Source: a virus. From it: a stretch of DNA of 11,823 bases. Made by a program: the position numbers and the translations under genes. Position 1 is the first letter of the stretch, and the number at the start of each line of letters is the position of its first letter. The stretch lies in UHGV virus genome UHGV-1844342; one strand, written 5' to 3'. The notes below the pieces were generated by a model. It was not told where the DNA came from. It ran no database searches and was given only the letters and a program-made list of their open reading frames with translations. Below are positions 492-11,823 of the stretch, in pieces.

Positions 492-719
492 ATGAAAAAA
501 ATGGCAATTGTTGATAAAAAGGGTCTGGAGTACATTCCTAACATTGACCGAATGATCCGTGAGAAAGAATGTCGGGAGCTAACCACTCTTGCGAACAGCA
601 CACGCTGGAAGCTGGAGAAGGAAGGAAAATTTCCTAAGCGGATCAAGATTGGTTCCACTGCTGTTGCATATCGTCTTTCAGAAGTGCAGGCATGGATTCG
701 AGGTGAGTGGGTAGTTTAA
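492..719 (+). CDS. alpA: AlpA/Vis-family prophage transcriptional regulator (winged HTH)
   Basis: 75-aa product; ...ELTTLANSTRWKLEKEGKFPKRIKIGSTAVAYRLSEVQAWI... fits the AlpA/Vis HTH pattern; sits directly after int as in Gram-negative PICIs; ATG 492 with AAGG 9 nt upstream (track start 483 is a TTG). Confidence 0.8.
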   Translation: MKKMAIVDKKGLEYIPNIDRMIREKECRELTTLANSTRWKLEKEGKFPKRIKIGSTAVAYRLSEVQAWIRGEWVV

Positions 720-3160: not shown

Positions 3161-3460
3161 ATGGAAATGAAAAATTCTGGCTTTATTGCCAGCGGCCCCG
3201 CTCGGCCTGAATTTATGAACGGCGATATTTACCGCGATAAATACGGCGGCACGGTAACGATTAAAGGCGTGGCAGAACGGCGCATCACTTACCGCCGTGA
3301 GGGGTATAGCTATGACTGCGTGATGCCTGTTTATCAGTTCCGGCGTGATTTTTCCCTGGTATATGCCGCACCTCGCAGTAAGCCCACCAGCAGGGAAAAA
3401 GCGCGGGGAAACATCCAGAAAATGAAAAGCATGATTAACGCATTCAGGGGCAAAAAATGA
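3161..3460 (+). CDS. Hypothetical protein (99 aa), translationally coupled to the replication gene
   Basis: GAGGAA upstream of ATG; stop overlaps the start of the downstream gene (ATGA at 3457-3460). Confidence 0.55.
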   Translation: MEMKNSGFIASGPARPEFMNGDIYRDKYGGTVTIKGVAERRITYRREGYSYDCVMPVYQFRRDFSLVYAAPRSKPTSREKARGNIQKMKSMINAFRGKK

Positions 3461-5208
3461 AACTGGCACCGAACTTAAAAAAACAGCCACGCGACAGACT
3501 GACAGAGGTAATCATCTTTGCAGGTAGTGATGCGTGGAGCCATGCGAAAGAGTGGCAGGAATGGGCGGGTAAACATATTGCCGCCGACGATGTGCCGCCT
3601 GTCGTGCTGGCTGATGAGCAACTGAAAAACATCATCGATTACCGGATCATTGATGAAGATCGTCAGTGTGTGCGTGTTTACCGCGCAGGACATATCACAG
3701 AGCACAGCATGACGCAGATTGTTACGTTACTGGCTGTGGCTGGAGTGAAGACCGTACACGAATACGCGGGGATTACTGACACCAGCCCCGTGGATTTATC
3801 CGACCAGTTGCCGCGACTCAAAGAGGAATGCGAGCGTGGGGAAAGTCTGGTGCTTAATCTTCCGACGAAGCAAAAGGCGCAACTTTCACAGATGGCAGAC
3901 AGTGAACGTGCACAACTACTTGCCGATCGCTTTGATGGTGTGTGTGTTCATGCAGAAAGTGAAATCGTCCACGTATGGCGCGGCGGGGTATGGTGTCCGG
4001 TCAGCACAATGGAGCTGAGCCGCGAAATGGTGGCGATCTATTCAGAGCACAGGGCCACGTTCAGCAAACGTGTAATCAATAACGCCGTGGAAGCGTTAAA
4101 AGTTATTGCCGACCCCATGGGGGAGCCGTCCGGTGATTTACTACCGTTCACTAATGGTGTGCTTAACCTGAAAACGGGGGATTTTTCTCCGCACTTACCG
4201 GAGCACTGGAGCACCACGCACAATGGCATTGAGTACACGCCACCAGTAGCAGGGGAAAACATCCGCGATAATGCGCCAAATTTCCATAAATGGCTTGAAC
4301 ATGCTGCAGGAAAAGACCCGCGCAAGATGATGCGTATATGTGCCGCGTTATACATGATTATGGCGAACCGCTACGACTGGCAGATGTTCATTGAGGCCAC
4401 CGGAGACGGGGGAAGCGGTAAGAGTACATTTACCCATATTGCCACCCTGCTTGCTGGCAAACAGAACACCGTAAGCGCAGAGATGACATCACTCGATGAT
4501 GCAGGAGGGCGCGCGCAGGTTGTCGGGAGTCGTCTTATCGTCCTTGCCGATCAGCTGAAATATACGGGGGAAGGCACGGGCATCAAGAAAATCACGGGAG
4601 GCGATCCCGTTGAAATTAACCCGAAATATGAGAAGCGATTCACGACGATAATAAGGGCGGTGGTACTGGCAACCAATAACGACCCGATGATCTTTACCGA
4701 ACGGGCCGGAGGTGTGTCACGCCGTCGGGTGATTTTCCGGTTCGACAACATTGTAAGGGAGGACGAAAAAGACAAGGAATTACCGGAAAAGATAGCGGCA
4801 GAAATCCCCGTAATTATCCGCCGCTTGCTGGCTAATTTTGCTGACCCTGAAAAGGCACGGGCTTTATTACTGGAACAGCGTGACGGTGATGAAGCTCTGG
4901 CAATAAAGCAGCAAACGGATCCGGTTGTTGAGCTTTGCGCGGCGCTGGAGTTTCTGGAGGAAGCTCGTGGGCTAATGATGGGCGGTGGTGGTGACACCGT
5001 GAAGTACACGACCAGAAACAGCCTTTACCGTGTCTATATGGCCTTCATGGCATATACAGGAAAGGGGAAATGTTTGAGCGTGAATGAGTTCGGAAAGGCT
5101 ATGAGGTCAGCGGCGAAAGTTTACGGATATGAATATATTACGCGAAAAGTTAAGGGAGTCACGCAGACCAACGCAACGACTACTGATGATTGCGATGCGT
5201 TTTTATAA
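3457..5208 (+). CDS. Replication protein: SF3 helicase with primase-associated N-terminal region (P4 alpha C-terminal / D5-like family; PICI pri-rep analogue)
   Basis: 583 aa; Walker A EATGDGGSGKST (about nt 4395-4430), Walker B-like RLIVLADQ (about 4531-4554), motif C-like VLATNND; iteron origin immediately downstream. Confidence 0.85.
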   Translation: MKLAPNLKKQPRDRLTEVIIFAGSDAWSHAKEWQEWAGKHIAADDVPPVVLADEQLKNIIDYRIIDEDRQCVRVYRAGHITEHSMTQIVTLLAVAGVKTVHEYAGITDTSPVDLSDQLPRLKEECERGESLVLNLPTKQKAQLSQMADSERAQLLADRFDGVCVHAESEIVHVWRGGVWCPVSTMELSREMVAIYSEHRATFSKRVINNAVEALKVIADPMGEPSGDLLPFTNGVLNLKTGDFSPHLPEHWSTTHNGIEYTPPVAGENIRDNAPNFHKWLEHAAGKDPRKMMRICAALYMIMANRYDWQMFIEATGDGGSGKSTFTHIATLLAGKQNTVSAEMTSLDDAGGRAQVVGSRLIVLADQLKYTGEGTGIKKITGGDPVEINPKYEKRFTTIIRAVVLATNNDPMIFTERAGGVSRRRVIFRFDNIVREDEKDKELPEKIAAEIPVIIRRLLANFADPEKARALLLEQRDGDEALAIKQQTDPVVELCAALEFLEEARGLMMGGGGDTVKYTTRNSLYRVYMAFMAYTGKGKCLSVNEFGKAMRSAAKVYGYEYITRKVKGVTQTNATTTDDCDAFL

Positions 5209-5220
5209 AAAATGGCAATG

Positions 5221-5455
5221 GTTATCTACCTTGTCTACCTGACTGAAATAAAATACTTTTATTTCAATGTATTAATGCAGGTAGATAACTATTTTTCACT
5301 GTCTACCTGTTATCTACCTTATCTACCCATTTTTGTAGACAGGTAAGGAGACGGGTAGAGATGAGGTAGACAGCTATTTGGGGCTGTCTACCTCCCTGAA
5401 ACCCGCGCCATTACTGGCCTGATAACTAATCAGGTAGACAAGGTAGACAAGGTGG
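5221..5455. repeat. Iteron-type replication origin: about 12 copies of GGTAGAC(A)/GTCTACC (with GGTAGATA variants) in both orientations flanking an AT-rich spacer (5241-5278)
   Basis: Copies at about 5223, 5233, 5280, 5301, 5312, 5321, 5335, 5353, 5365, 5385, 5433, 5442; tandem pair GGTAGACAAGGTAGACAAGG at 5433-5451; directly 3' of the helicase gene as in PICI/P4 ori. Confidence 0.8.
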
Positions 5456-5497: not shown

Positions 5498-5740
5498 ATG
5501 CACACATCAGGAAAACTGAACAAACATATAAAGCCACATTACCGCGCCCTTGATATGGCTGAACACTGGCTAAGGGTGGCGATTAAGGCAATAGACCGCA
5601 ACGCCGGGGAAGGATACGCGAAAGCACATCCCGAACTGATAAGCGCATTCATGACAACGGCGGCTGCAAACTTTGCCACGCTGACCGAACGGGAGATTGC
5701 CGAAGCGGAGGAAGTGACAACCATCAATATTAAGTCCTGA
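5498..5740 (+). CDS. Hypothetical protein (80 aa)
   Basis: ATG with GAGGGGG upstream; no overlapping conflict. Confidence 0.5.
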   Translation: MHTSGKLNKHIKPHYRALDMAEHWLRVAIKAIDRNAGEGYAKAHPELISAFMTTAAANFATLTEREIAEAEEVTTINIKS

Positions 5741-5751
5741 GAGCAGGCAGC

Positions 5752-6201
5752 ATGACGGCGCAAATAGCAGCTTACGGGCGGCTGGTGGACGACCCACAGG
5801 TAAAACATACCAGCAAGGGAACACCCATGACACTGGCACGGATGGCGGTATCTTTGCCATGCAGCCAGGCAGATGACGGAACGGCGACGATGTGGTTATC
5901 TGTGCTGGCGTTTGGCAGACAAGCCGACGCGCTGGCAAAGCATCACAAAGGCGAACTCCTGAGCGTGGCGGGTAATATGCAGGTGAGCCAGTGGAGCGGA
6001 CAGAACGGGGAAACGCGGCAGGGCTGGCAGGTTATCGCAGACAGCGTAATCAGTGCCAGAACGGTGCGACCGGGCGGCAAAAAAGGTCAACAGGGGCAGG
6101 CTACTGATGCACTGAACAGAGCAAAACAACAGGCAGATCAGCAAGGAAGCCATCCACCAGTGGGAGATAATGAGCAATGGGGAGATGATATTCCGTTTTA
6201 A
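5752..6201 (+). CDS. ssb: Single-stranded DNA-binding protein
   Basis: 149 aa; OB-fold-like N-terminal region, Gly/Gln-rich linker, and canonical acidic C-terminal tail ...GDDIPF. Confidence 0.8.
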   Translation: MTAQIAAYGRLVDDPQVKHTSKGTPMTLARMAVSLPCSQADDGTATMWLSVLAFGRQADALAKHHKGELLSVAGNMQVSQWSGQNGETRQGWQVIADSVISARTVRPGGKKGQQGQATDALNRAKQQADQQGSHPPVGDNEQWGDDIPF

Positions 6202-6219
6202 ATATTGCCAATAAAAAAG

Positions 6220-6243
6220 GCCGGAAAAAATATATTTTCCGGC
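6220..6243. terminator. Hairpin GCCGGAAAA / TTTTCCGGC (9-bp stem, 6-nt loop) between the replication and morphogenesis modules
   Basis: Exact inverted repeat 6220-6228 / 6235-6243; an A-run precedes it on + (so a T-run follows it on the minus strand); function as a module boundary is inferred. Confidence 0.35.
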
Positions 6244-6411
6244 ATGCTACATAAATCCCGACCAAAGGGAGTGAAGATATTAACACTAATTATCCGCGCT
6301 GAAGTTGTCATCCCAAAACTTTATACAACATTGCACTCGGTTGCATGTGTTAGCATGACAAATATCGGTGATAGCATATATCCACAATTATTTTTAATGA
6401 ATGTAAAGAGG

Positions 6412-7458
6412 ATGAGTATGGTTGATTTATATTCGCCTGCCCAGCTTGTGCAGGTGGCTAATGCAGAAGAGGTGCAAAAAAAATTAAATGCATTGTTTAC
6501 CAGTTTGTTTTTCACTCGCTCGGTAATGTTTGAATCAAGAGACATTATTCTTGATACAATCGACGATCCAAATATCCCAATTGCAGCGTTTTGTTCTCCT
6601 ATGGTGGGTAGTAAAGTTTCACGTGACGAAGGGTACGAATCAAAGACAATTCGTCCAGGCTATATGAAGCCGAAAAGCAGCATTGATCCAAATAAGTTAG
6701 CTGTGCGCCCTGCTGGTGTATCACCTGAGCAATACAATGCTTTTGGAGCGCGTAATATTAAAGTTAAACAGGCGATTGTAAATCAGGCTAAAGCTATTCG
6801 TGCACGTATTGAATGGCTTGCCGTTCAGGCAATCACAACGGGGAAAAATATCATTGAGGGCGATGGCATTGAACGCTATGAACTGGACTGGAATATAAAA
6901 CCACAAAATATTATCACGCAGTCCGGCGGTGCTGAGTGGTCAGGTAAGGATAAAGAAACTTTTGATCCAAATGATGATATTGAGAGCTACGCAGAATTTA
7001 GTGAGGGCGTCACTAATATCATCATTATGGGCGGTAATGTATGGAAGAAATACCGTTCATTCAGAGCGATAAAAGAGGCTCTGGATACCCGTCGTGGTTC
7101 TAATTCCGAACTGGAAACGGCCCTTAAAGACCTTGGTGATTCGGTGAGTTTTAAAGGGTATATGGGCGATGTTGCGATTGTTGTATACAGCGGGCGTTAT
7201 ACCGACGAGGACGGAACTGAAAAACATTTCCTTGATCCTGATTTGATGGTGCTTGGCAATACGGCTCTTCAGGGGATTGTCGCCTATGGCGGTATTCAGG
7301 ATCCGGAGCTAATCCGAATGGGGCTGACTAAAGCCGAACTTGCACCGAAAAACTATATTGTGCCTGGTGATCCGGCTATTGAATATGTGCAGACACATTC
7401 AGCACCACAGCCAATACCGGCCCGCATCAATCGTTTTGTTACCGTTCGCATTGGCTAA
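6412..7458 (+). CDS. Major capsid protein, divergent homolog of lambda gpE (HK97 fold)
   Basis: ATG 6412 preceded by AAGAGG; C-terminal about 200 aa align with the lambda E fragment present in this same window (shared blocks ITQSGG.EWS..DK.T.DP.DDIE.YA, DTRRGS.SELETA.KDLG, GDVAIVVYSG, MVLGNT), roughly 55-60 percent identity there by eye; N-terminal third far more divergent. Confidence 0.85.
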   Translation: MSMVDLYSPAQLVQVANAEEVQKKLNALFTSLFFTRSVMFESRDIILDTIDDPNIPIAAFCSPMVGSKVSRDEGYESKTIRPGYMKPKSSIDPNKLAVRPAGVSPEQYNAFGARNIKVKQAIVNQAKAIRARIEWLAVQAITTGKNIIEGDGIERYELDWNIKPQNIITQSGGAEWSGKDKETFDPNDDIESYAEFSEGVTNIIIMGGNVWKKYRSFRAIKEALDTRRGSNSELETALKDLGDSVSFKGYMGDVAIVVYSGRYTDEDGTEKHFLDPDLMVLGNTALQGIVAYGGIQDPELIRMGLTKAELAPKNYIVPGDPAIEYVQTHSAPQPIPARINRFVTVRIG

Positions 7459-7467
7459 GGGGGAGCA

Positions 7468-7809
7468 ATGGCTACTCATTACACTGAACTCATGGCTGGC
7501 ACTGAAGCACTGGTGACTACGCTGGGGATATTTTCAGCTAATAAAGGGGTAATTCCTGCATTTACGCCACTGATGCAGGAAGATGCAACAGGTGCACTGG
7601 TGGTATGGGATGGTTCGAGCGTAGGTAAAGCGGTTTATGTTTCCGCTGTACAAATCGACACCGCGAAAAAAACACAGGCTCAGGTCTATAAGACAGGTGT
7701 CTTAAATGTTGATGCTCTGAACTGGCCTGAGTCTGTAAAAGAACTGTCAGTAAAGATTGCAGCGTTTGTTGGCTCAGGTATTTCTGTTCAGCCGCTGGCT
7801 CGTGTGTAA
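7468..7809 (+). CDS. Head decoration protein, lambda gpD-like
   Basis: 113 aa; AAGGGGGAG RBS; blocks TPLMQEDATGALVVWDG, VYKTGVLNVDALNWPES and FVGSGISVQ resemble lambda gpD (TPLM..VAWDG, FYKSGTFRYEDVLWPEA, FAGTAISIV) as recalled. Confidence 0.7.
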   Translation: MATHYTELMAGTEALVTTLGIFSANKGVIPAFTPLMQEDATGALVVWDGSSVGKAVYVSAVQIDTAKKTQAQVYKTGVLNVDALNWPESVKELSVKIAAFVGSGISVQPLARV

Positions 7810-7820
7810 AGGGGGATACA

Positions 7821-8204
7821 ATGCAGAATCATTACAATGACCTTAAGCCAATTGCCGAAATGATGTATCCGGATCCAGCAGTAGAGGAATTAAAGGCTAT
7901 TGCTGACAAAATGCGTTTAAGCGAGCGTCTTGTTGATATGAATCAGGTGATGGAACTTACAACCCTGAGTCGTCGTACACTGCTAAACCTTGAAGCACGT
8001 GGAGAGTTCCCCGAACGCGTGCAGGTTACGGAAGGGCGTAAGGCCTGGTATTTAAGCGAAGTGATCGACTGGATAAACAATATTCCGCGCGCTTCTGAAT
8101 ATTGCCGCGTACCTGTCCCAAAAAAGCCAGATGCGGCGCTATGCCTCAAGATTGAGCGTGTACGCCGCAATGCGCGGGATGGTCGCTATAAGCTGATTGG
8201 TTGA
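7821..8204 (+). CDS. Second AlpA-family HTH protein with about 40-aa N-terminal extension; candidate late/packaging regulator
   Basis: 127 aa; AAGGGGGA RBS; core ELTTLSRRTLLNLEARGEFPERVQVTEGRKAWYLSEVIDWI matches the AlpA/Vis winged-HTH pattern. Confidence 0.7.
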   Translation: MQNHYNDLKPIAEMMYPDPAVEELKAIADKMRLSERLVDMNQVMELTTLSRRTLLNLEARGEFPERVQVTEGRKAWYLSEVIDWINNIPRASEYCRVPVPKKPDAALCLKIERVRRNARDGRYKLIG

Positions 8205-8219
8205 TGAAATTAGGGCCCG

Positions 8220-8300
8220 TTCTGGCTGGCGGGTCCTTTCCGGCGATCCAGAACGTTACGGGGCGGCGACCTCGCGGGTTTTCGCTATTTATGAGCATTT
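8220..8300 (+). other. cos: Lambda-type cos site: cosQ-like segment, cosN 12-nt cohesive-end sequence GGGCGGCGACCT (8261-8272), and proximal cosB segment
   Basis: 8223-8294 reads TGGCTGGCGGGTCCTTTCCGG.GATCC....GTTACG GGGCGGCGACCT CGCGGGTTTTCGCTATTTATGA, matching the joined right-end/left-end sequence of phage lambda as recalled; a Nu1-like gene follows as in lambda. Confidence 0.85.
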
Positions 8301-8405
8301 TTAGGGGACTGGTGGTGGTTTTGTTGTTCGCTATATCTGTATGAATAATAAGAGAAAAACACAATCAACACACCAACCTGAAACAGTAATTAAGTTGTGG
8401 TATCA

Positions 8406-8948
8406 ATGAAATTGCACCTGATGAACAAAAAAAACATGGCAAAAAGTTGCCGTGTAAGCGCCACTGCGTTCGATAAGTGGGGAGTGATTCCCGTCGAGCG
8501 TAAGGGCCGCGAGGCGTTTTATGATGTCGCCAGTGTAATAGATAATCGGGTTAACAATGCAATCAGCCAGATTACAAACGAAACGGGCGAGATTGATGAT
8601 GATGAACTCCTACGAGTCAGGATCAGATTGCTGACAGCACAGGCAGAGGCGCAGGAGCTTAAAAACGAGCGCGAACGCGGCGACGTTATTGATACAGCGT
8701 TTTGTATATACGTGCTTTCAAAACTGGCGAGTCAGATTTCTTCAATCATGGACAGCCTGCCGCTTGCCATGACAAGGAAGTTTCCCGACATGAAGCCGTC
8801 TATGCTGGATGGACTGAAAAAAGAAGTTATCAGAGCCTGTAACGCATGCGCAAAACTTGACGAAAACATACCGCTGATGCTGTCCGATTATCTGATGGAA
8901 ACTGCCGGAAACGTACCGGATAAGTTGCAGCTGAATAAAGATAAGTAA
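8406..8948 (+). CDS. Terminase small subunit, lambda Nu1-like (winged HTH N-terminus plus gpA-interaction C-terminus)
   Basis: C-terminal two-thirds aligns with recalled lambda Nu1 (LTAQAEAQELKNER...DTAFCIYVLSKLASQISSIMDSLPLAMTRKFPDM...KLDENIPLMLSDYL vs LTRAQADAQELKNARD...ETAFCTFVLSRIAGEIASILDGLPLSVQRRFPEL...ALDELIPGLLSEYI); N-terminus more divergent; start 8406 by analogy with lambda (8421 is an alternative; track start 8397 is GTG). Confidence 0.8.
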   Translation: MKLHLMNKKNMAKSCRVSATAFDKWGVIPVERKGREAFYDVASVIDNRVNNAISQITNETGEIDDDELLRVRIRLLTAQAEAQELKNERERGDVIDTAFCIYVLSKLASQISSIMDSLPLAMTRKFPDMKPSMLDGLKKEVIRACNACAKLDENIPLMLSDYLMETAGNVPDKLQLNKDK

Positions 8949-8959
8949 CGTAGTACGCT

Positions 8960-9241
8960 ATGACTGAATCCGAAATACTGCGATTAATCCGCCGTGCTTG
9001 TGGAATCAGCAAGCAGCATGACGAACAGGCCACGCAGCCGGACAGCGTGATCGCCGAAAATTACGCGCGTGTTGTTGCTGATGTGATGCGCCGTGATGGT
9101 ATTGAGCTTAACGGCGTGGATATGCGCGACATACGGATCAGATTCCTTGAGTTGCTGGCATACCGTCGCCGTTCTCAACAACGAAGGGAGAGCGCGAAAA
9201 ACACTTATCAGTGGAAGAAGCCGGAACGGTTGCGGCGGTAG
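8960..9241 (+). CDS. Hypothetical basic protein (93 aa) in the position occupied by the large terminase gene in lambda
   Basis: ORF directly downstream of the Nu1-like gene (12-nt gap); Arg-rich C-terminus; no obvious SD; no similarity to lambda gpA N-terminus that I can see. Confidence 0.45.
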   Translation: MTESEILRLIRRACGISKQHDEQATQPDSVIAENYARVVADVMRRDGIELNGVDMRDIRIRFLELLAYRRRSQQRRESAKNTYQWKKPERLRR

Positions 9242-9983
9242 ATTCCTGATATTCAGGAAAACCACGAATCCGGGGGTTTTACTGGCGCGGTGTACACGGT
9301 GGAACGTATAGCGTTACCTGACTTATTGCATTGTAAAAAGTTGAAAGGCACGGCCTGTAAGATGGGATGTTGTGAGTAGTTTAAAGCTACCCGCAAATTC
9401 TTTCGTTGTGCTGGCACAGGCGGTTAAACCGTCGGTAACTGGATAATCCCCACTGGGGGAAAAGCTGGCTACATCCCTCACATCTGAGGACTGATAACGC
9501 AAAATTGCGTTGGCTGGCAGAGTGCAAATTTGCACGATGGCCTAACCCATTGATTCTTTCGAAAACCCCCATTGGGGGAGAACGGGGGAATAAACCTGAC
9601 TCATTGATTTTTCCACAATCCTTAATTTGAGGAAGCTGGATAGTTGCACTACCCAAAAAGTGCAGTACCCACATAGCTGCTTAATAGCGTTTATTTTTTC
9701 CGCACACCTCAAATCTGAGAAGGCCGGAATGATGACATGGCAGGATTATGATTCCTTGATTTCAAGGAGTCCTCCAGTGTGAAAATGAAATTATCTGGGC
9801 TGGTGGGTGAGTTGCTGATCTGCAACTCGGCTATGAAACTTAATAATCGAACAGCATGTAAATTCATTTCTGTGTATTGCAGCATGTATTGCAACATAGT
9901 CATTCTGGTAGAGATTATGCTCTATTTTTCCTCTTATATCATTCACATACTTACGTCATTGACTCATGTAGCCGAAGCATGAG

Positions 9984-10760
9984 GTGAATCCGCAGATGAC
10001 CCTGCGTCGCCTGCCGGATGAAGATCCGCAGAATCTGGCGGACCCGGCTTACCGCCGCCGTCGCATCATTATGCAGAACATGCGTGACGAAGAGCTGGCC
10101 ATTGCCCAGGTCGAAGAGATGCAGGCAGTTTCTGCCGTGCTTAAGGGCAAATACACCATGACCGGTGAAGCTTTCGATCCGGTTGAGGTGGATATGGGCC
10201 GCAGTGCGGCCAACAACATCACGCAGTCCGGCGGCACGGAGTGGAGCAAGCGTGACAAGTCCACGTATGACCCGACCGACGATATCGAAGCCTACGCGCT
10301 GAACGCCAGCGGAGTGGTGAATATCATCGTGTTTGATCCGAAAGGCTGGGCGCTGTTCCGTTCCTTCAAAGCCGTCAAGGAGAAGCTGGATACTCGTCGC
10401 GGCTCTCATTCCGAGCTGGAGACAGCGGTGAAAGACCTGGGCAAAGCGGTGTCCTACAAGGGGATGTATGGCGATGTGGCCATCGTCGTGTATTCCGGAC
10501 AGTACGTGGAAAACGGCGTCAAAAAGAACTTCCTGCCGGACAACACGATGGTGCTGGGGAACACTCAGGCACGCGGTCTGCGCACCTATGGCTGCATTCA
10601 GGATGCGGACGCACAGCGCGAAGGCATTAACGCCTCTGCCCGTTACCCGAAAAACTGGGTGACCACCGGCGATCCGGCGCGTGAGTTCACCATGATTCAG
10701 TCAGCACCGCTGATGCTGCTGGCTGATCCTGATGAGTTCGTGTCTGTACAACTGGCGTAA
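9984..10760 (+). pseudogene. E: Major capsid protein gpE, 5'-truncated fragment (C-terminal about 258 codons), near-identical to lambda E
   Basis: Translation NPQMTLRRLPDEDPQNLADPAYRRRRIIMQNMRDEELAIAQ...EFVSVQLA matches lambda gpE from about residue 85 to the end as recalled; in-frame TAG at 9969-9971 and non-lambda AT-rich sequence upstream; the track start is a GTG that is internal in lambda. Confidence 0.85.
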
Positions 10761-11211: not shown

Positions 11212-11823
11212 GTGGCTGATTTCGATAACCTGTTCGATGCTGCCATTGCCCGCGCCGATGAAACGATACGCGGGTACATGGGAACGTCAGCCACCATGAC
11301 ATCCGGTGAGCAGTCCGGTGCTGTGATACGTGGTGTTTTTGATGACCCTGAAAATATCAGCTATGCCGGACAGGGCGTGCGCGTTGAAGGCTCCAGCCCG
11401 TCCCTGTTTGTCCGGACTGATGATGTGCGGCAGCTGCGGCGCGGCGACACGCTGACTTCCATTGCCCGGCAATTCGGCACGACGGTCACGAGCATTGTCG
11501 CAATCAATGATCTAAAAAATGAATCTGATCGCAATGAGCAGGACGGCATCAGGTATATGCTTATGGGCTTCTTTCAAGGGCCTCGCAATTTGTACCAACA
11601 CAATCACATTGGCTCCGGTGTAAGCAATTCTATTTCCGTAATCATTGAAGCATCTTTCTTCCTCCATCTACTTGATGGGCACAGCATTACTCAAAACGGA
11701 CGCTGGATTCCGGCCAAAGCAGATTATCACGAGATTTATCAAAAGATGCCCAAGCATATTGATCGTTGGAAGCTTGTACGCCTACTAAAGAAGCGTGATC
11801 GTAGGTTGAAGAAAGATCAATGA
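11212..11823 (+). CDS. FII: FII-like head-tail joining protein: first about 82 codons lambda FII-like, then an unrelated lower-GC C-terminal extension (chimeric or disrupted gene)
   Basis: GTG start with GGGAGG RBS; MADFDNLFDAAIARADETIRGYMGTSAT...VRQLRRGDTLT matches lambda gpFII as recalled, then diverges at about nt 11458 (lambda continues IGEENFWV...); the frame nevertheless stays open for about 120 more codons to the TGA at the window end. Confidence 0.6.
   Translation: MADFDNLFDAAIARADETIRGYMGTSATMTSGEQSGAVIRGVFDDPENISYAGQGVRVEGSSPSLFVRTDDVRQLRRGDTLTSIARQFGTTVTSIVAINDLKNESDRNEQDGIRYMLMGFFQGPRNLYQHNHIGSGVSNSISVIIEASFFLHLLDGHSITQNGRWIPAKADYHEIYQKMPKHIDRWKLVRLLKKRDRRLKKDQ

What the first reader, a model, noticed from the sequence alone, without database searches (positions are those of the whole stretch)
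7821..8204. Second AlpA-family paralog placed at the end of the capsid operon, immediately before cos
The island carries two AlpA-type HTH proteins: the canonical one after int (492-719) and a longer one with a 40-aa N-terminal extension between the decoration gene and cos. A second copy in the late/packaging module suggests split control, for example one activating excision or early genes and the other acting on the packaging operon, or acting as a recombination directionality factor.
Basis: partly seen in the sequence, partly recalled or inferred. Interest (0 to 1): 0.5.

Follow-up and report, generated by a model that had tools for sequence, protein, structure and literature searches.

The report
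Capsid-cassette AlpA-like regulator in phage satellite
The gene is a real, conserved AlpA-type DNA-binding protein that always travels with a phage satellite's capsid genes. It most likely controls those genes through a row of short repeats at their promoter, rather than acting in excision or DNA packaging.

Summary
ORF 7821-8204 (127 aa) passes the Pfam Phage_AlpA threshold, is 38% identical to the int-adjacent AlpA (492-719), and ends 26 nt before cosQ and 56 nt before a lambda-identical cosN. The extra length is about 14-17 aa N-terminal and about 36 aa C-terminal, not 40 aa N-terminal.

The window is a helper-embedded PICI inserted in gene E of a lambdoid prophage. The ORF is not an in-island duplicate. 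In 141 of 141 loci with enough sequence it follows capE and the decoration gene. This holds whatever the integrase, the int-adjacent regulator (AlpA, HTH_17 or other), the cosB type or the packaging gene (Nu1-like TerS, Rpp or none).

Every cassette also has one array of 3-4 direct repeats (ATTGCAC-like, 10-11 bp period) upstream of capE, ahead of an extended -10 with no usable -35. The repeat sequence changes with the ORF's recognition helix, not with the int-adjacent regulator. The geometry matches the PrtN/P-box system.

Best reading (confidence about 0.5): a cassette-specific, probably activating, autoregulator of the capsid operon. An excision-factor role and a cos-packaging role are poorly supported. 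No binding or expression has been tested.

The parts
492..719 (+). Canonical int-adjacent alpA of the satellite. It is listed for comparison and is not part of the cassette.
   Evidence: Pfam Phage_AlpA E 3e-15. RefSeq annotates this start in the identical locus L001. It is 90% identical to the alpA of L003, whose capsid cassette is of a different type.
6220..6243 (.). GC-rich palindromic hairpin after ssb. It is terminator-like and separates the replication genes from the capsid operon.
   Evidence: A hairpin flanked by A and T runs sits at the same place in all related loci. In this window the T-run follows the hairpin only on the minus strand, so termination of plus-strand transcripts is inferred, not shown.
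6320..6356 (+). Array of direct repeats with a 10-bp period: TTTATAC / ATTGCAC / (G)TTGCAT / TAGCAT. This is the candidate operator of the ORF 7821-8204 product.
   Evidence: It is the only cluster of 3 or more such repeats in the window, and there is one per related locus, always upstream of capE. Shuffles give 0.045 per 11.8 kb. The array appears in every cassette variant inspected. It is absent from the helper prophage and from the 49-kb CFT073 stretch (L009) that holds the right-hand part of EcCICFT073.
6369..6377 (+). Extended -10 element TGaTAGCAT of the inferred capsid-operon promoter. There is no usable -35.
   Evidence: A TGnTAnnAT element lies 16-22 nt after the last repeat and 28-52 nt before the capE ATG in 9 of 10 distinct loci. 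The transcription start near 6384 is inferred.
6418..7458 (+). Satellite major capsid protein, lambda gpE family.
   Evidence: Pfam Phage_cap_E E 3e-41. Start as in RefSeq.
7468..7809 (+). Head decoration protein, lambda gpD family.
   Evidence: Pfam HDPD E 4e-15.
7821..8204 (+). The finding: an extended AlpA-family winged helix-turn-helix protein of 127 aa. Residues 1-35 form two N-terminal helices, 36-86 the winged HTH, 87-104 a linker and 105-120 a C-terminal basic helix.
   Evidence: AlphaFold2 model with mean pLDDT 81, and above 95 in the core. Fold matches to excisionases, BldC and PrtN.
8231..8272 (+). cosQ (8231-8243) and the cosN cohesive end (8261-8272).
   Evidence: Alignment with lambda and with related satellites. 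cosQ and cosN are identical in the resident helper's cos.
8311..8328 (+). Satellite-type cosB-like element GGTGGTGGTTTTGTTGTT, at the position of lambda R3.
   Evidence: It is present only in the cassettes that carry the Nu1-like terS, so it is not tied to the AlpA-like gene.
8406..8948 (+). Satellite-encoded Nu1-family small terminase.
   Evidence: Pfam Phage_Nu1 E 1e-24. PHROG terminase small subunit E 2e-51. It is 38% identical over its full length to the helper's Nu1.

Best explanation
ORF 7821-8204 encodes the dedicated transcription regulator of the satellite's capsid cassette. The proposed mechanism has five parts.

1. Several copies bind head-to-tail, through the winged helix-turn-helix, to the 3-4 direct repeats (ATTGCAC-like, 10-11 bp period) at 6320-6356.
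2. Those repeats span about -63 to -28 of a promoter that has an extended -10 (6369-6377) but no -35.
3. The protein most likely activates this promoter, in the manner of PrtN on the pyocin P-box.
4. Because the gene is the third gene of the operon it controls (capE, D, this gene), the result would be a positive-feedback late switch. That switch would be insulated from the int/alpA/primase module by the hairpin after ssb.
5. The conserved N-terminal helices and the basic C-terminal helix are proposed to mediate oligomerisation or RNA polymerase contact.

Shown by sequence analysis: the fold and family, the cassette linkage, the array, and the co-variation.

Inferred only: binding to the array, the sign of regulation, the transcription start, and the role of the extensions.
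For: 1. Family and fold. It meets the Pfam Phage_AlpA threshold. In the model the winged HTH has pLDDT above 95. The nearest folds are proteins of the Xis/excisionase class, among them BldC bound to promoter DNA, and AlpA and PrtN activators. That Xis-class proteins and BldC bind arrays of direct repeats is from general knowledge.

2. Invariant linkage to capE-D. This holds in 141 of 141 loci with enough upstream sequence. It also holds across genera and integrase types.

3. A unique array. There is exactly one 10-11-bp-period repeat array per locus, always upstream of capE, against 0.045 expected by chance. The architecture of repeats, extended -10 and ATG is conserved.

4. Concerted change of all repeats in an array, together with changes in the recognition helix:
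- ATTGCAC with the helix LSRRTLLNLEA
- ATTATAC with ...LLDMEE (L002, L003)
- ATTGTAC with LSRG (L013)
- ATTAGAC with LSRQTILDME (L014)

5. No tracking with the int-adjacent regulator. The window and L003 share a 90% identical alpA but have different arrays. L002 and L003 share an array but have unrelated int-adjacent ORFs. The HTH_17 elements have the window-type array.

6. Other candidate binders are excluded. The array occurs in cassettes without the Nu1-like TerS (L011, L013, L014). The ori iterons have a different sequence and location. The helper prophage has no such array.

7. The related EcCICFT073 cassette is a natural control. It has an unrelated gene in this slot, no array, and a near-consensus TTGCTC-N16-TATAAT promoter.

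8. Co-occurrence in E. coli. The promoter/array region and the full-length gene each occur in 366 genomes, at the same 1.56-kb spacing in the genomes that could be compared.

9. Precedent. [quoted passage not shown] It is bound by the small activator PrtN to switch on phage-derived structural genes (PMC4905994).
Against: - No binding, expression or genetic data exist for this protein.
- The array and the gene lie 1.5 kb apart in one cassette, so co-inheritance and co-variation could reflect shared ancestry rather than recognition.
- Only about five specificity types are available, so the co-variation is qualitative.
- The sign of regulation is open. Repeats overlapping the -35 position would equally suit an autorepressor, as with Apl or Cox (from general knowledge).
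- The transcription start is not mapped.
- A positive-feedback activator needs an unidentified first trigger.
- The model does not by itself explain why the gene always ends 26-53 nt from cosQ.
Confidence: 0.5

Rival explanations
1. It is an autorepressor. It binds the same repeat array but occludes the promoter and keeps capE-D low until something relieves it, possibly a helper protein acting as an anti-repressor in the manner of SaPI Stl.
For: The repeats reach the -35 position. Xis-like regulators such as Apl and Cox repress promoters through direct-repeat arrays (general knowledge). The conserved N- and C-terminal extensions could be a sensor surface.
Against: The promoter lacks a -35 and so looks activator-dependent. 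EcCICFT073 lacks both the gene and the array and has a near-consensus promoter instead. The nearest functional analogues by geometry and fold, PrtN/P-box and PICI AlpA, are activators (PMC6092414).
Confidence: 0.15
2. It is a recombination directionality factor (excisionase) for the satellite, or a second one alongside the int-adjacent alpA.
For: The closest solved folds are excisionases: GIsul2 Xis 8c3t (45% identity, rmsd 0.8 Å) and RdfS. PHROG 2790 is labelled 'excisionase and transcriptional regulator'. In this window the HE-PICI att motif TGTATTGCA x2 (9873-9893) shares the ATTGCA core with the array.
Against: The gene travels with capE-D across at least three integrase and attachment systems: HE-PICI, fis-type, and the rpoD/mug site with HTH_17. 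The att motif is invariant in HE-PICIs whose cassette types and arrays differ (L002 and L003 versus the window). It is absent from the other elements that still carry the gene. Most elements examined already carry an int-adjacent AlpA or HTH_17 gene.
Confidence: 0.07
3. It is a DNA-packaging accessory acting at cos. It might bind near cosQ/cosN, or bind the helper or satellite TerS (in the manner of Rpp or Ppi), to favour satellite packaging.
For: It is always the last gene before cos, with 26 nt from stop to cosQ in 72 loci. The fold is the same class as the Nu1 and Rpp DNA-binding domains, although the matches are weak (ranks 8, 25, 45). There is a precedent for a packaging factor encoded next to cos, the HK97 HNH protein (general knowledge).
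Against: No conserved DNA element at cos is specific to elements carrying this gene. cosQ and cosN are shared with phages that lack it. It co-occurs with four cosB types, and with Nu1-like TerS, Rpp homologues or neither. It has no sequence similarity to RppA and only a 19-residue chance-level alignment (E 0.09) to the Nu1-like TerS. No homologue was found in 50,697 phage genomes.
Confidence: 0.12
4. It acts in trans on helper or host targets, for example by interfering with helper late genes or by a TorI-like protein-protein action. On this view the array upstream of capE is bound by something else.
For: Satellites commonly encode anti-helper factors in the late zone (PMC6739421). Single binding sites cannot be excluded by the repeat scan.
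Against: The resident helper prophage (about 28 kb on the left side plus about 8.5 kb of tail genes on the right) contains no array. The array changes in concert with this protein and not with the other element-encoded wHTH proteins.
Confidence: 0.12

Closest known systems
PICI master regulator AlpA (EcCICFT073 alpA; Fillol-Salom et al. 2018, PMC6092414)
   Same: Same Pfam family (Phage_AlpA) and the same winged HTH. It is 38% identical to this island's own alpA. Both are satellite-encoded and probably positive regulators.
   Different: It is not int-adjacent. It is 127 aa, with a conserved C-terminal tail and a longer N-terminus. It is inherited with the capE-D cassette rather than with the integration module, and it occurs in satellites that have no int-adjacent alpA. 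Its candidate operator is at the capsid promoter.
[quoted passage not shown]
   Same: A small winged-HTH protein of the same fold class (BFVD PrtN hits). [quoted passage not shown]
   Different: There is no sequence-level membership, as no PyocinActivator Pfam hit was found. The repeat consensus differs after ATTG. Here the regulator is encoded inside the operon it would control, not under a LexA-like repressor.
Xis-type excisionases and BldC (8c3t GIsul2 Xis, RdfS, Pukovnik Xis, BldC)
   Same: Best structural matches. From general knowledge, they bind direct repeats cooperatively, head to tail, at helical periodicity.
   Different: There is no linkage to an integrase or to att sites. The N- and C-terminal helices have no counterpart in those structures.
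Rpp, the redirecting-phage-packaging protein of EcCICFT073 (PMC6739421, PMC9026076)
   Same: A satellite-encoded winged-HTH protein encoded next to cos.
   Different: Rpp lies downstream of cos and this gene lies upstream. There is no sequence similarity. The two can co-occur in one cassette. In EcCICFT073 the slot of this gene holds an unrelated 137-aa protein.

Membership tests
Pfam Phage_AlpA (PF05930) family | Profile score at or above the curated gathering threshold | tested here: met
   34.9 bits against a cut-off of 21, residues 36-85. All 20 aligned family members match.
PICI master regulator AlpA | Encoded immediately downstream of, and co-oriented with, the integrase gene in the integration zone | tested here: not met
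   The gene lies 7.3 kb from int, after capE-D. ORF 492-719 occupies the canonical position.
PICI master regulator AlpA | Required for helper-dependent induction, excision and replication of the island | not testable with these tools
   This needs deletion and complementation in a helper lysogen.
Recombination directionality factor (Xis/AlpA-type) | Xis-like winged-helix fold | tested here: met
   Foldseek match to 8c3t (rmsd 0.8 Å over 51 residues, 45% identity), then RdfS and Pukovnik Xis.
Recombination directionality factor (Xis/AlpA-type) | Co-inheritance with a cognate integrase, and binding sites in the att arms | tested here: not met
   It is found with HE-PICI, fis-type and HTH_17-type integration modules. 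The att doubled motif stays constant while the protein type and the array change, and it is absent from other carriers of the gene.
Rpp (redirecting phage packaging) | Encoded directly downstream of the satellite cos, in the terS position, and homologous to RppA-C | tested here: not met
   It lies upstream of cos. BLASTP against RppA gives no alignment. Rpp homologues co-occur with it in L051, L052, L058 and L064.
PrtN/P-box type late activator | Target made of about four 10-11-nt direct repeats upstream of the structural-gene promoter | tested here: met
   The array is at 6320-6356, and equivalents are present in all cassette variants inspected. The P-box definition is from PMC4905994.
PrtN/P-box type late activator | Sequence membership in the PrtN family (Pfam PyocinActivator) | tested here: not met
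   No such Pfam hit even at E up to 10. The similarity is at fold level only.
PrtN/P-box type late activator | The protein binds the repeats and activates transcription | not testable with these tools
   This needs EMSA or footprinting and reporter assays.

The most novel reading that the evidence does not exclude
The gene's invariable position as the last gene before cosQ may be functional. On this reading the protein is a new kind of satellite packaging factor: a wHTH protein that marks the cosQ-side end, or captures helper terminase. The capE-upstream array would then be only a second, autoregulatory target. A variant of this reading is that the conserved extensions sense a helper late protein, making this a helper-timed late switch in Gram-negative PICIs.
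Probability: 0.1. Interest if true: 0.7.

Novelty: new variant of a known kind. Interest (0 to 1): 0.4.

Why it matters
Current models of Gram-negative PICIs have a single regulator, the int-adjacent AlpA, driving the whole island. How their capsid and packaging genes are timed is not described in the papers read here. A cassette-borne second regulator with its own operator would add a late regulatory tier. It would also explain how the capE-D module can be swapped between satellites with different integration and control modules and still be correctly expressed. The capsid genes themselves have no known role in EcCICFT073, and a promoter, operator and regulator set would give a handle for studying them. 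The claim is directly testable with simple binding and reporter assays.

Tried and rejected
1. Pseudomonas aeruginosa AlpA antiterminator as a model. That protein is a Q-like eight-helix protein with an N-terminal ring and a C-terminal HTH (PMC9371919). It shares only the name, so I rejected it.

2. The target as an Rpp homologue or TerS-like protein. The position is wrong and there is no meaningful similarity: none to RppA, and a 19-residue chance-level match (E 0.09) to the Nu1-like TerS.

3. The EcCICFT073 gene in the same slot (probably c1501, by gene order) as an orthologue. The c1501::tetA insertion still allows transfer. However, the slot gene is unrelated: it matches phrog_1999, with a weak match to the C-terminus of head maturation protease, which may be scaffold-like. 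Those genetics therefore say nothing about this protein.

4. The array as the replication origin. The ori iterons (TGTCTACCT, 5215-5455) differ in sequence and place.

5. The array, or ATTGCAC sites, near terS or cos, or in the helper. Only a single non-conserved ATTGCAC lies inside terS. The helper has no array.

6. GGTGGTGGT as a shared site. It has three exact copies in the window but shows no consistent pattern in other loci apart from cosB.

7. A literature search for the PDB code 8C3T returned only noise.

8. The first AlphaFold run, on a shallow 20-sequence alignment, gave pLDDT 55 and was unusable. I repeated it with 120 sequences.

9. The afdb50 fold library was unavailable.

10. Rfam gave no hit in the window. 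NCBIfam gave no hit for the target.

Full report
**What the window is.** The window is a phage satellite of the helper-embedded PICI type, as described by Mageeney et al. (PMC10111431). It is inserted in the major-capsid gene E of a lambdoid prophage.
- The 3' part of E (9984-10760) follows the island, then FI and FII.
- The 5' part of E and the helper head genes lie upstream of int in the related genome NZ_CP070066, which is 100% identical to the window over the 3.6-kb stretch searched (5700-9300).
- The island reads: int, alpA (492-719), small ORFs, primase (3457-5208), ori iterons (5215-5455), ssb (5752-6201), capE (6418-7458), decoration gene D (7468-7809), the ORF in question (7821-8204), cos, a Nu1-family terS (8406-8948), a 93-aa ORF, and the att region with the published HE-PICI motif TGTATTGCA x2 (9873-9893).

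**Observation check.** The ORF is intact and has a strong ribosome-binding site.
- It passes the Pfam Phage_AlpA threshold (34.9 bits against 21, residues 36-85).
- It aligns with the island's canonical AlpA at 38% identity over 65 residues (E 4e-11).
- Its best solved-structure relative is the AlpA-family excisionase 8c3t (E 1.6e-10).
- It ends 26 nt before cosQ and 56 nt before a cohesive-end sequence identical to lambda's.

The description is therefore correct, with one exception. The extra length is mainly a conserved 42-residue C-terminal tail. The N-terminal excess over the canonical AlpA is only about 14-17 residues.

**The protein family.** A word-indexed search found 99 clusters, almost all exactly 127 aa and at least 57% identical. 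They come from Escherichia, Enterobacter, Citrobacter, Klebsiella, Salmonella, Pluralibacter, Trabulsiella, Scandinavium, Buttiauxella and others.
- The HTH core (residues 35-90) is nearly invariant.
- The tail motif C.VPVP.KPDA.LCLK.ERVRRQAR.GK is conserved, and the first 30 residues vary.
- An exhaustive profile search of 1.84 billion representatives found only five clusters at E 1e-30 or better. Scores then drop sharply to generic AlpA proteins. This is a narrow subfamily.
- No homologue was found in 50,697 deposited phage genomes.
- With a 120-sequence alignment, AlphaFold2 gives mean pLDDT 81: two N-terminal helices, a winged HTH with pLDDT above 95, a disordered linker and a C-terminal helix at 105-120.
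- Fold searches return Xis-type excisionases, BldC, MerR-class domains and weak TerS and Rpp DNA-binding domains from the PDB. Viral models return AlpA and PrtN activators. Nothing matches the extensions.

**Genomic context.** The gene is part of a mobile cassette, not a duplicate of the island's alpA. In 141 of 141 loci with enough upstream sequence, from genomes, metagenomes and IMG/VR, capE and D homologues lie directly upstream. The cassette occurs in several kinds of element:
- helper-embedded PICIs in capE or in Nu1;
- a fis-site PICI;
- Salmonella-type elements next to rpoD/mug.

Their int-adjacent regulators are AlpA, HTH_17 or an unrelated 72-aa ORF.

**Downstream of cos the context varies.**
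- A GGTGGTGG-type cosB with a Nu1-like terS, as in the window, occurs in 77 loci.
- About 58 loci have lambda-like R3/R2 sites. That count assumes that the 50 loci that missed the cosN anchor are all of the type seen in the four commonest examples printed. Those four carry a variant cosN, and the window-type terS is either absent or distant.
- A CCCACTTCC type occurs in three loci.
- A CACCACCAC type with Rpp homologues occurs in two loci.
- In EcCICFT073 the same slot holds an unrelated 137-aa protein (probably c1501, by gene order), followed by cos1 and rppA.

The protein is therefore tied to capE-D and cosQ/cosN, not to any packaging-specificity device.

**The candidate operator.** Upstream of capE, every cassette has the same layout: a hairpin, then 3-4 direct repeats with a 10-11 bp period, then 16-22 nt, then an extended -10 (TGnTAnnAT), then 28-52 nt to the ATG.
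- In the window the repeats are TTTATAC, ATTGCAC, TTGCAT and TAGCAT at 6320-6356. The -10 element is TGaTAGCAT at 6369-6377. No acceptable -35 is present.
- A scan for three or more such repeats at this spacing finds exactly one cluster in each of eight loci, always at this place. L002 and L003 have two clear copies and a third imperfect one, so the scan missed them, but inspection shows their array at the same place. Shuffles give 0.045 per 11.8 kb. The scan finds none in 49 kb around EcCICFT073 and none in the resident helper prophage.
- The array is distinct from the ori iterons.
- In E. coli complete genomes the promoter/array segment and the full-length gene each occur in 366 genomes, at the same 1.56-kb spacing in the genomes that could be compared.

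**Co-variation.** All repeats within an array change together, and they change with the protein's recognition helix:

| Repeat unit | Recognition helix | Loci |
|---|---|---|
| ATTGCAC | LSRRTLLNLEA | window type |
| ATTATAC | ...LLDMEE | L002, L003 |
| ATTGTAC | LSRG... | L013 |
| ATTAGAC | LSRQTILDME | L014 |

- They do not follow the int-adjacent regulator. The window and L003 share a 90% identical alpA but have different arrays.
- L002 and L003 share an array but have unrelated int-adjacent ORFs.
- HTH_17 elements carry the window-type array.
- TerS cannot be the binder, because the array persists where the Nu1-like TerS is absent.
- The caveat is that the array and the gene are physically linked, so shared ancestry alone could produce this pattern.

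[quoted passage not shown] The P-box is bound by the small activator PrtN to switch on phage-derived structural genes (PMC4905994). PrtN models are among the fold matches. I therefore propose that the protein oligomerises head-to-tail on the repeats, centred near -40, -50 and -60, and activates an otherwise weak promoter. Because the gene is the third of the operon, this would give positive feedback. EcCICFT073 lacks both the gene and the array and has a near-consensus TTGCTC-N16-TATAAT promoter instead. Binding, the sign of regulation and the transcription start are all inferences.

**Rivals.**
- An excision-factor role is disfavoured. The gene is inherited independently of integrase clade, and the HE-PICI att motif stays constant while the protein type and array vary. 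The motif is also absent from other carriers of the gene.
- A role at cos is disfavoured. No cos element is specific to carriers of the gene, and the gene is indifferent to the cosB, TerS or Rpp type. Its constant position next to cosQ keeps this reading alive at low probability.
- An autorepressor acting on the same array, and a trans-acting role on the helper or host, remain possible.

**Comparison with what is known.** The protein is a member of the AlpA family by the Pfam criterion. It is not the PICI master regulator by position and linkage, not an Rpp, and not a sequence member of the PrtN family. None of the satellite papers read here describes a late-zone AlpA. Mageeney et al. file all Phage_AlpA hits under 'Integration'. 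De Sousa et al. note only that some satellites have two regulatory genes.

**Verdict.** The 'paralogue' and excision-factor readings should be replaced. The better reading is a cassette-specific regulator with a P-box-like operator at the capsid promoter. That is plausible and easily testable, but unproven. Interest is moderate.

Noticed in passing
window 8261-8328; L018 (helper cos, reverse strand near 7613); L009 7520-7640: The satellite cos has cosQ and cosN identical to the resident helper's. Lambda R3 is replaced by GGTGGTGGTTTTGTTGTT, and the satellite encodes its own full-length Nu1 homologue, 38% identical to the helper Nu1. EcCICFT073 cos1 carries the reverse-complement-like CACCACCACCAC at the same position, next to rppA.
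   Followed up: partly
L019 3960-4460 (NZ_CP054665, lambdoid prophage): An apparently complete lambdoid prophage carries a frameshifted 3' half of this AlpA-like gene immediately left of its own cos, followed by its own cosB, terS and terL. This looks like a satellite-phage chimera joined at the shared cos.
   Followed up: partly
L009 7084-7497 (EcCICFT073, probably c1501): The gene in the equivalent slot of EcCICFT073 is an unrelated acidic 137-aa protein. It matches phrog_1999 and, weakly, the C-terminal part of head maturation protease, which may be a Nu3-like scaffold region.
   Followed up: partly
window 5215-5455: A dense set of TGTCTACCT / AGGTAGACA iterons in both orientations lies just after the primase gene. 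This is the probable replication origin. Related satellites have different iterons at the same place (AGTGTTCACC in L003, GGTGGGAC in L014).
   Followed up: partly
window 9873-9893: The published HE-PICI att-arm motif (TGTATTGCA twice, 12-bp spacing) lies about 80-100 bp before the junction with the helper E gene. It is present in all HE-PICI loci examined and absent from the non-HE carriers of the cassette.
   Followed up: yes
window 11212-11823: The helper FII (head-tail attachment) reading frame is fused from about 11457 to sequence encoding LysM-like and Hypoth_Ymh-like segments. That 3' part has no match in 5,426 complete E. coli genomes.
   Followed up: partly
window 7459-7490 and 7812-7843: The translation-initiation regions of the decoration gene and of the AlpA-like gene are 72% identical over 32 nt (RBS, ATG, ..CATTACA.TGA.CT). 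Both proteins start M..HY..L. This may be chance or a small duplication.
   Followed up: no
window 9242-9870: About 600 bp lie between the 93-aa ORF and the att arm with no convincing gene and no Rfam hit. The function is unknown.
   Followed up: no
L001 5086-7674: In the related genome (100% identical over the 3.6-kb stretch compared) the satellite primase is split by an IS66 element. The helper portal gene also has an internal stop (L018). That copy of the pair is probably immobile, whereas the window's primase is intact.
   Followed up: no
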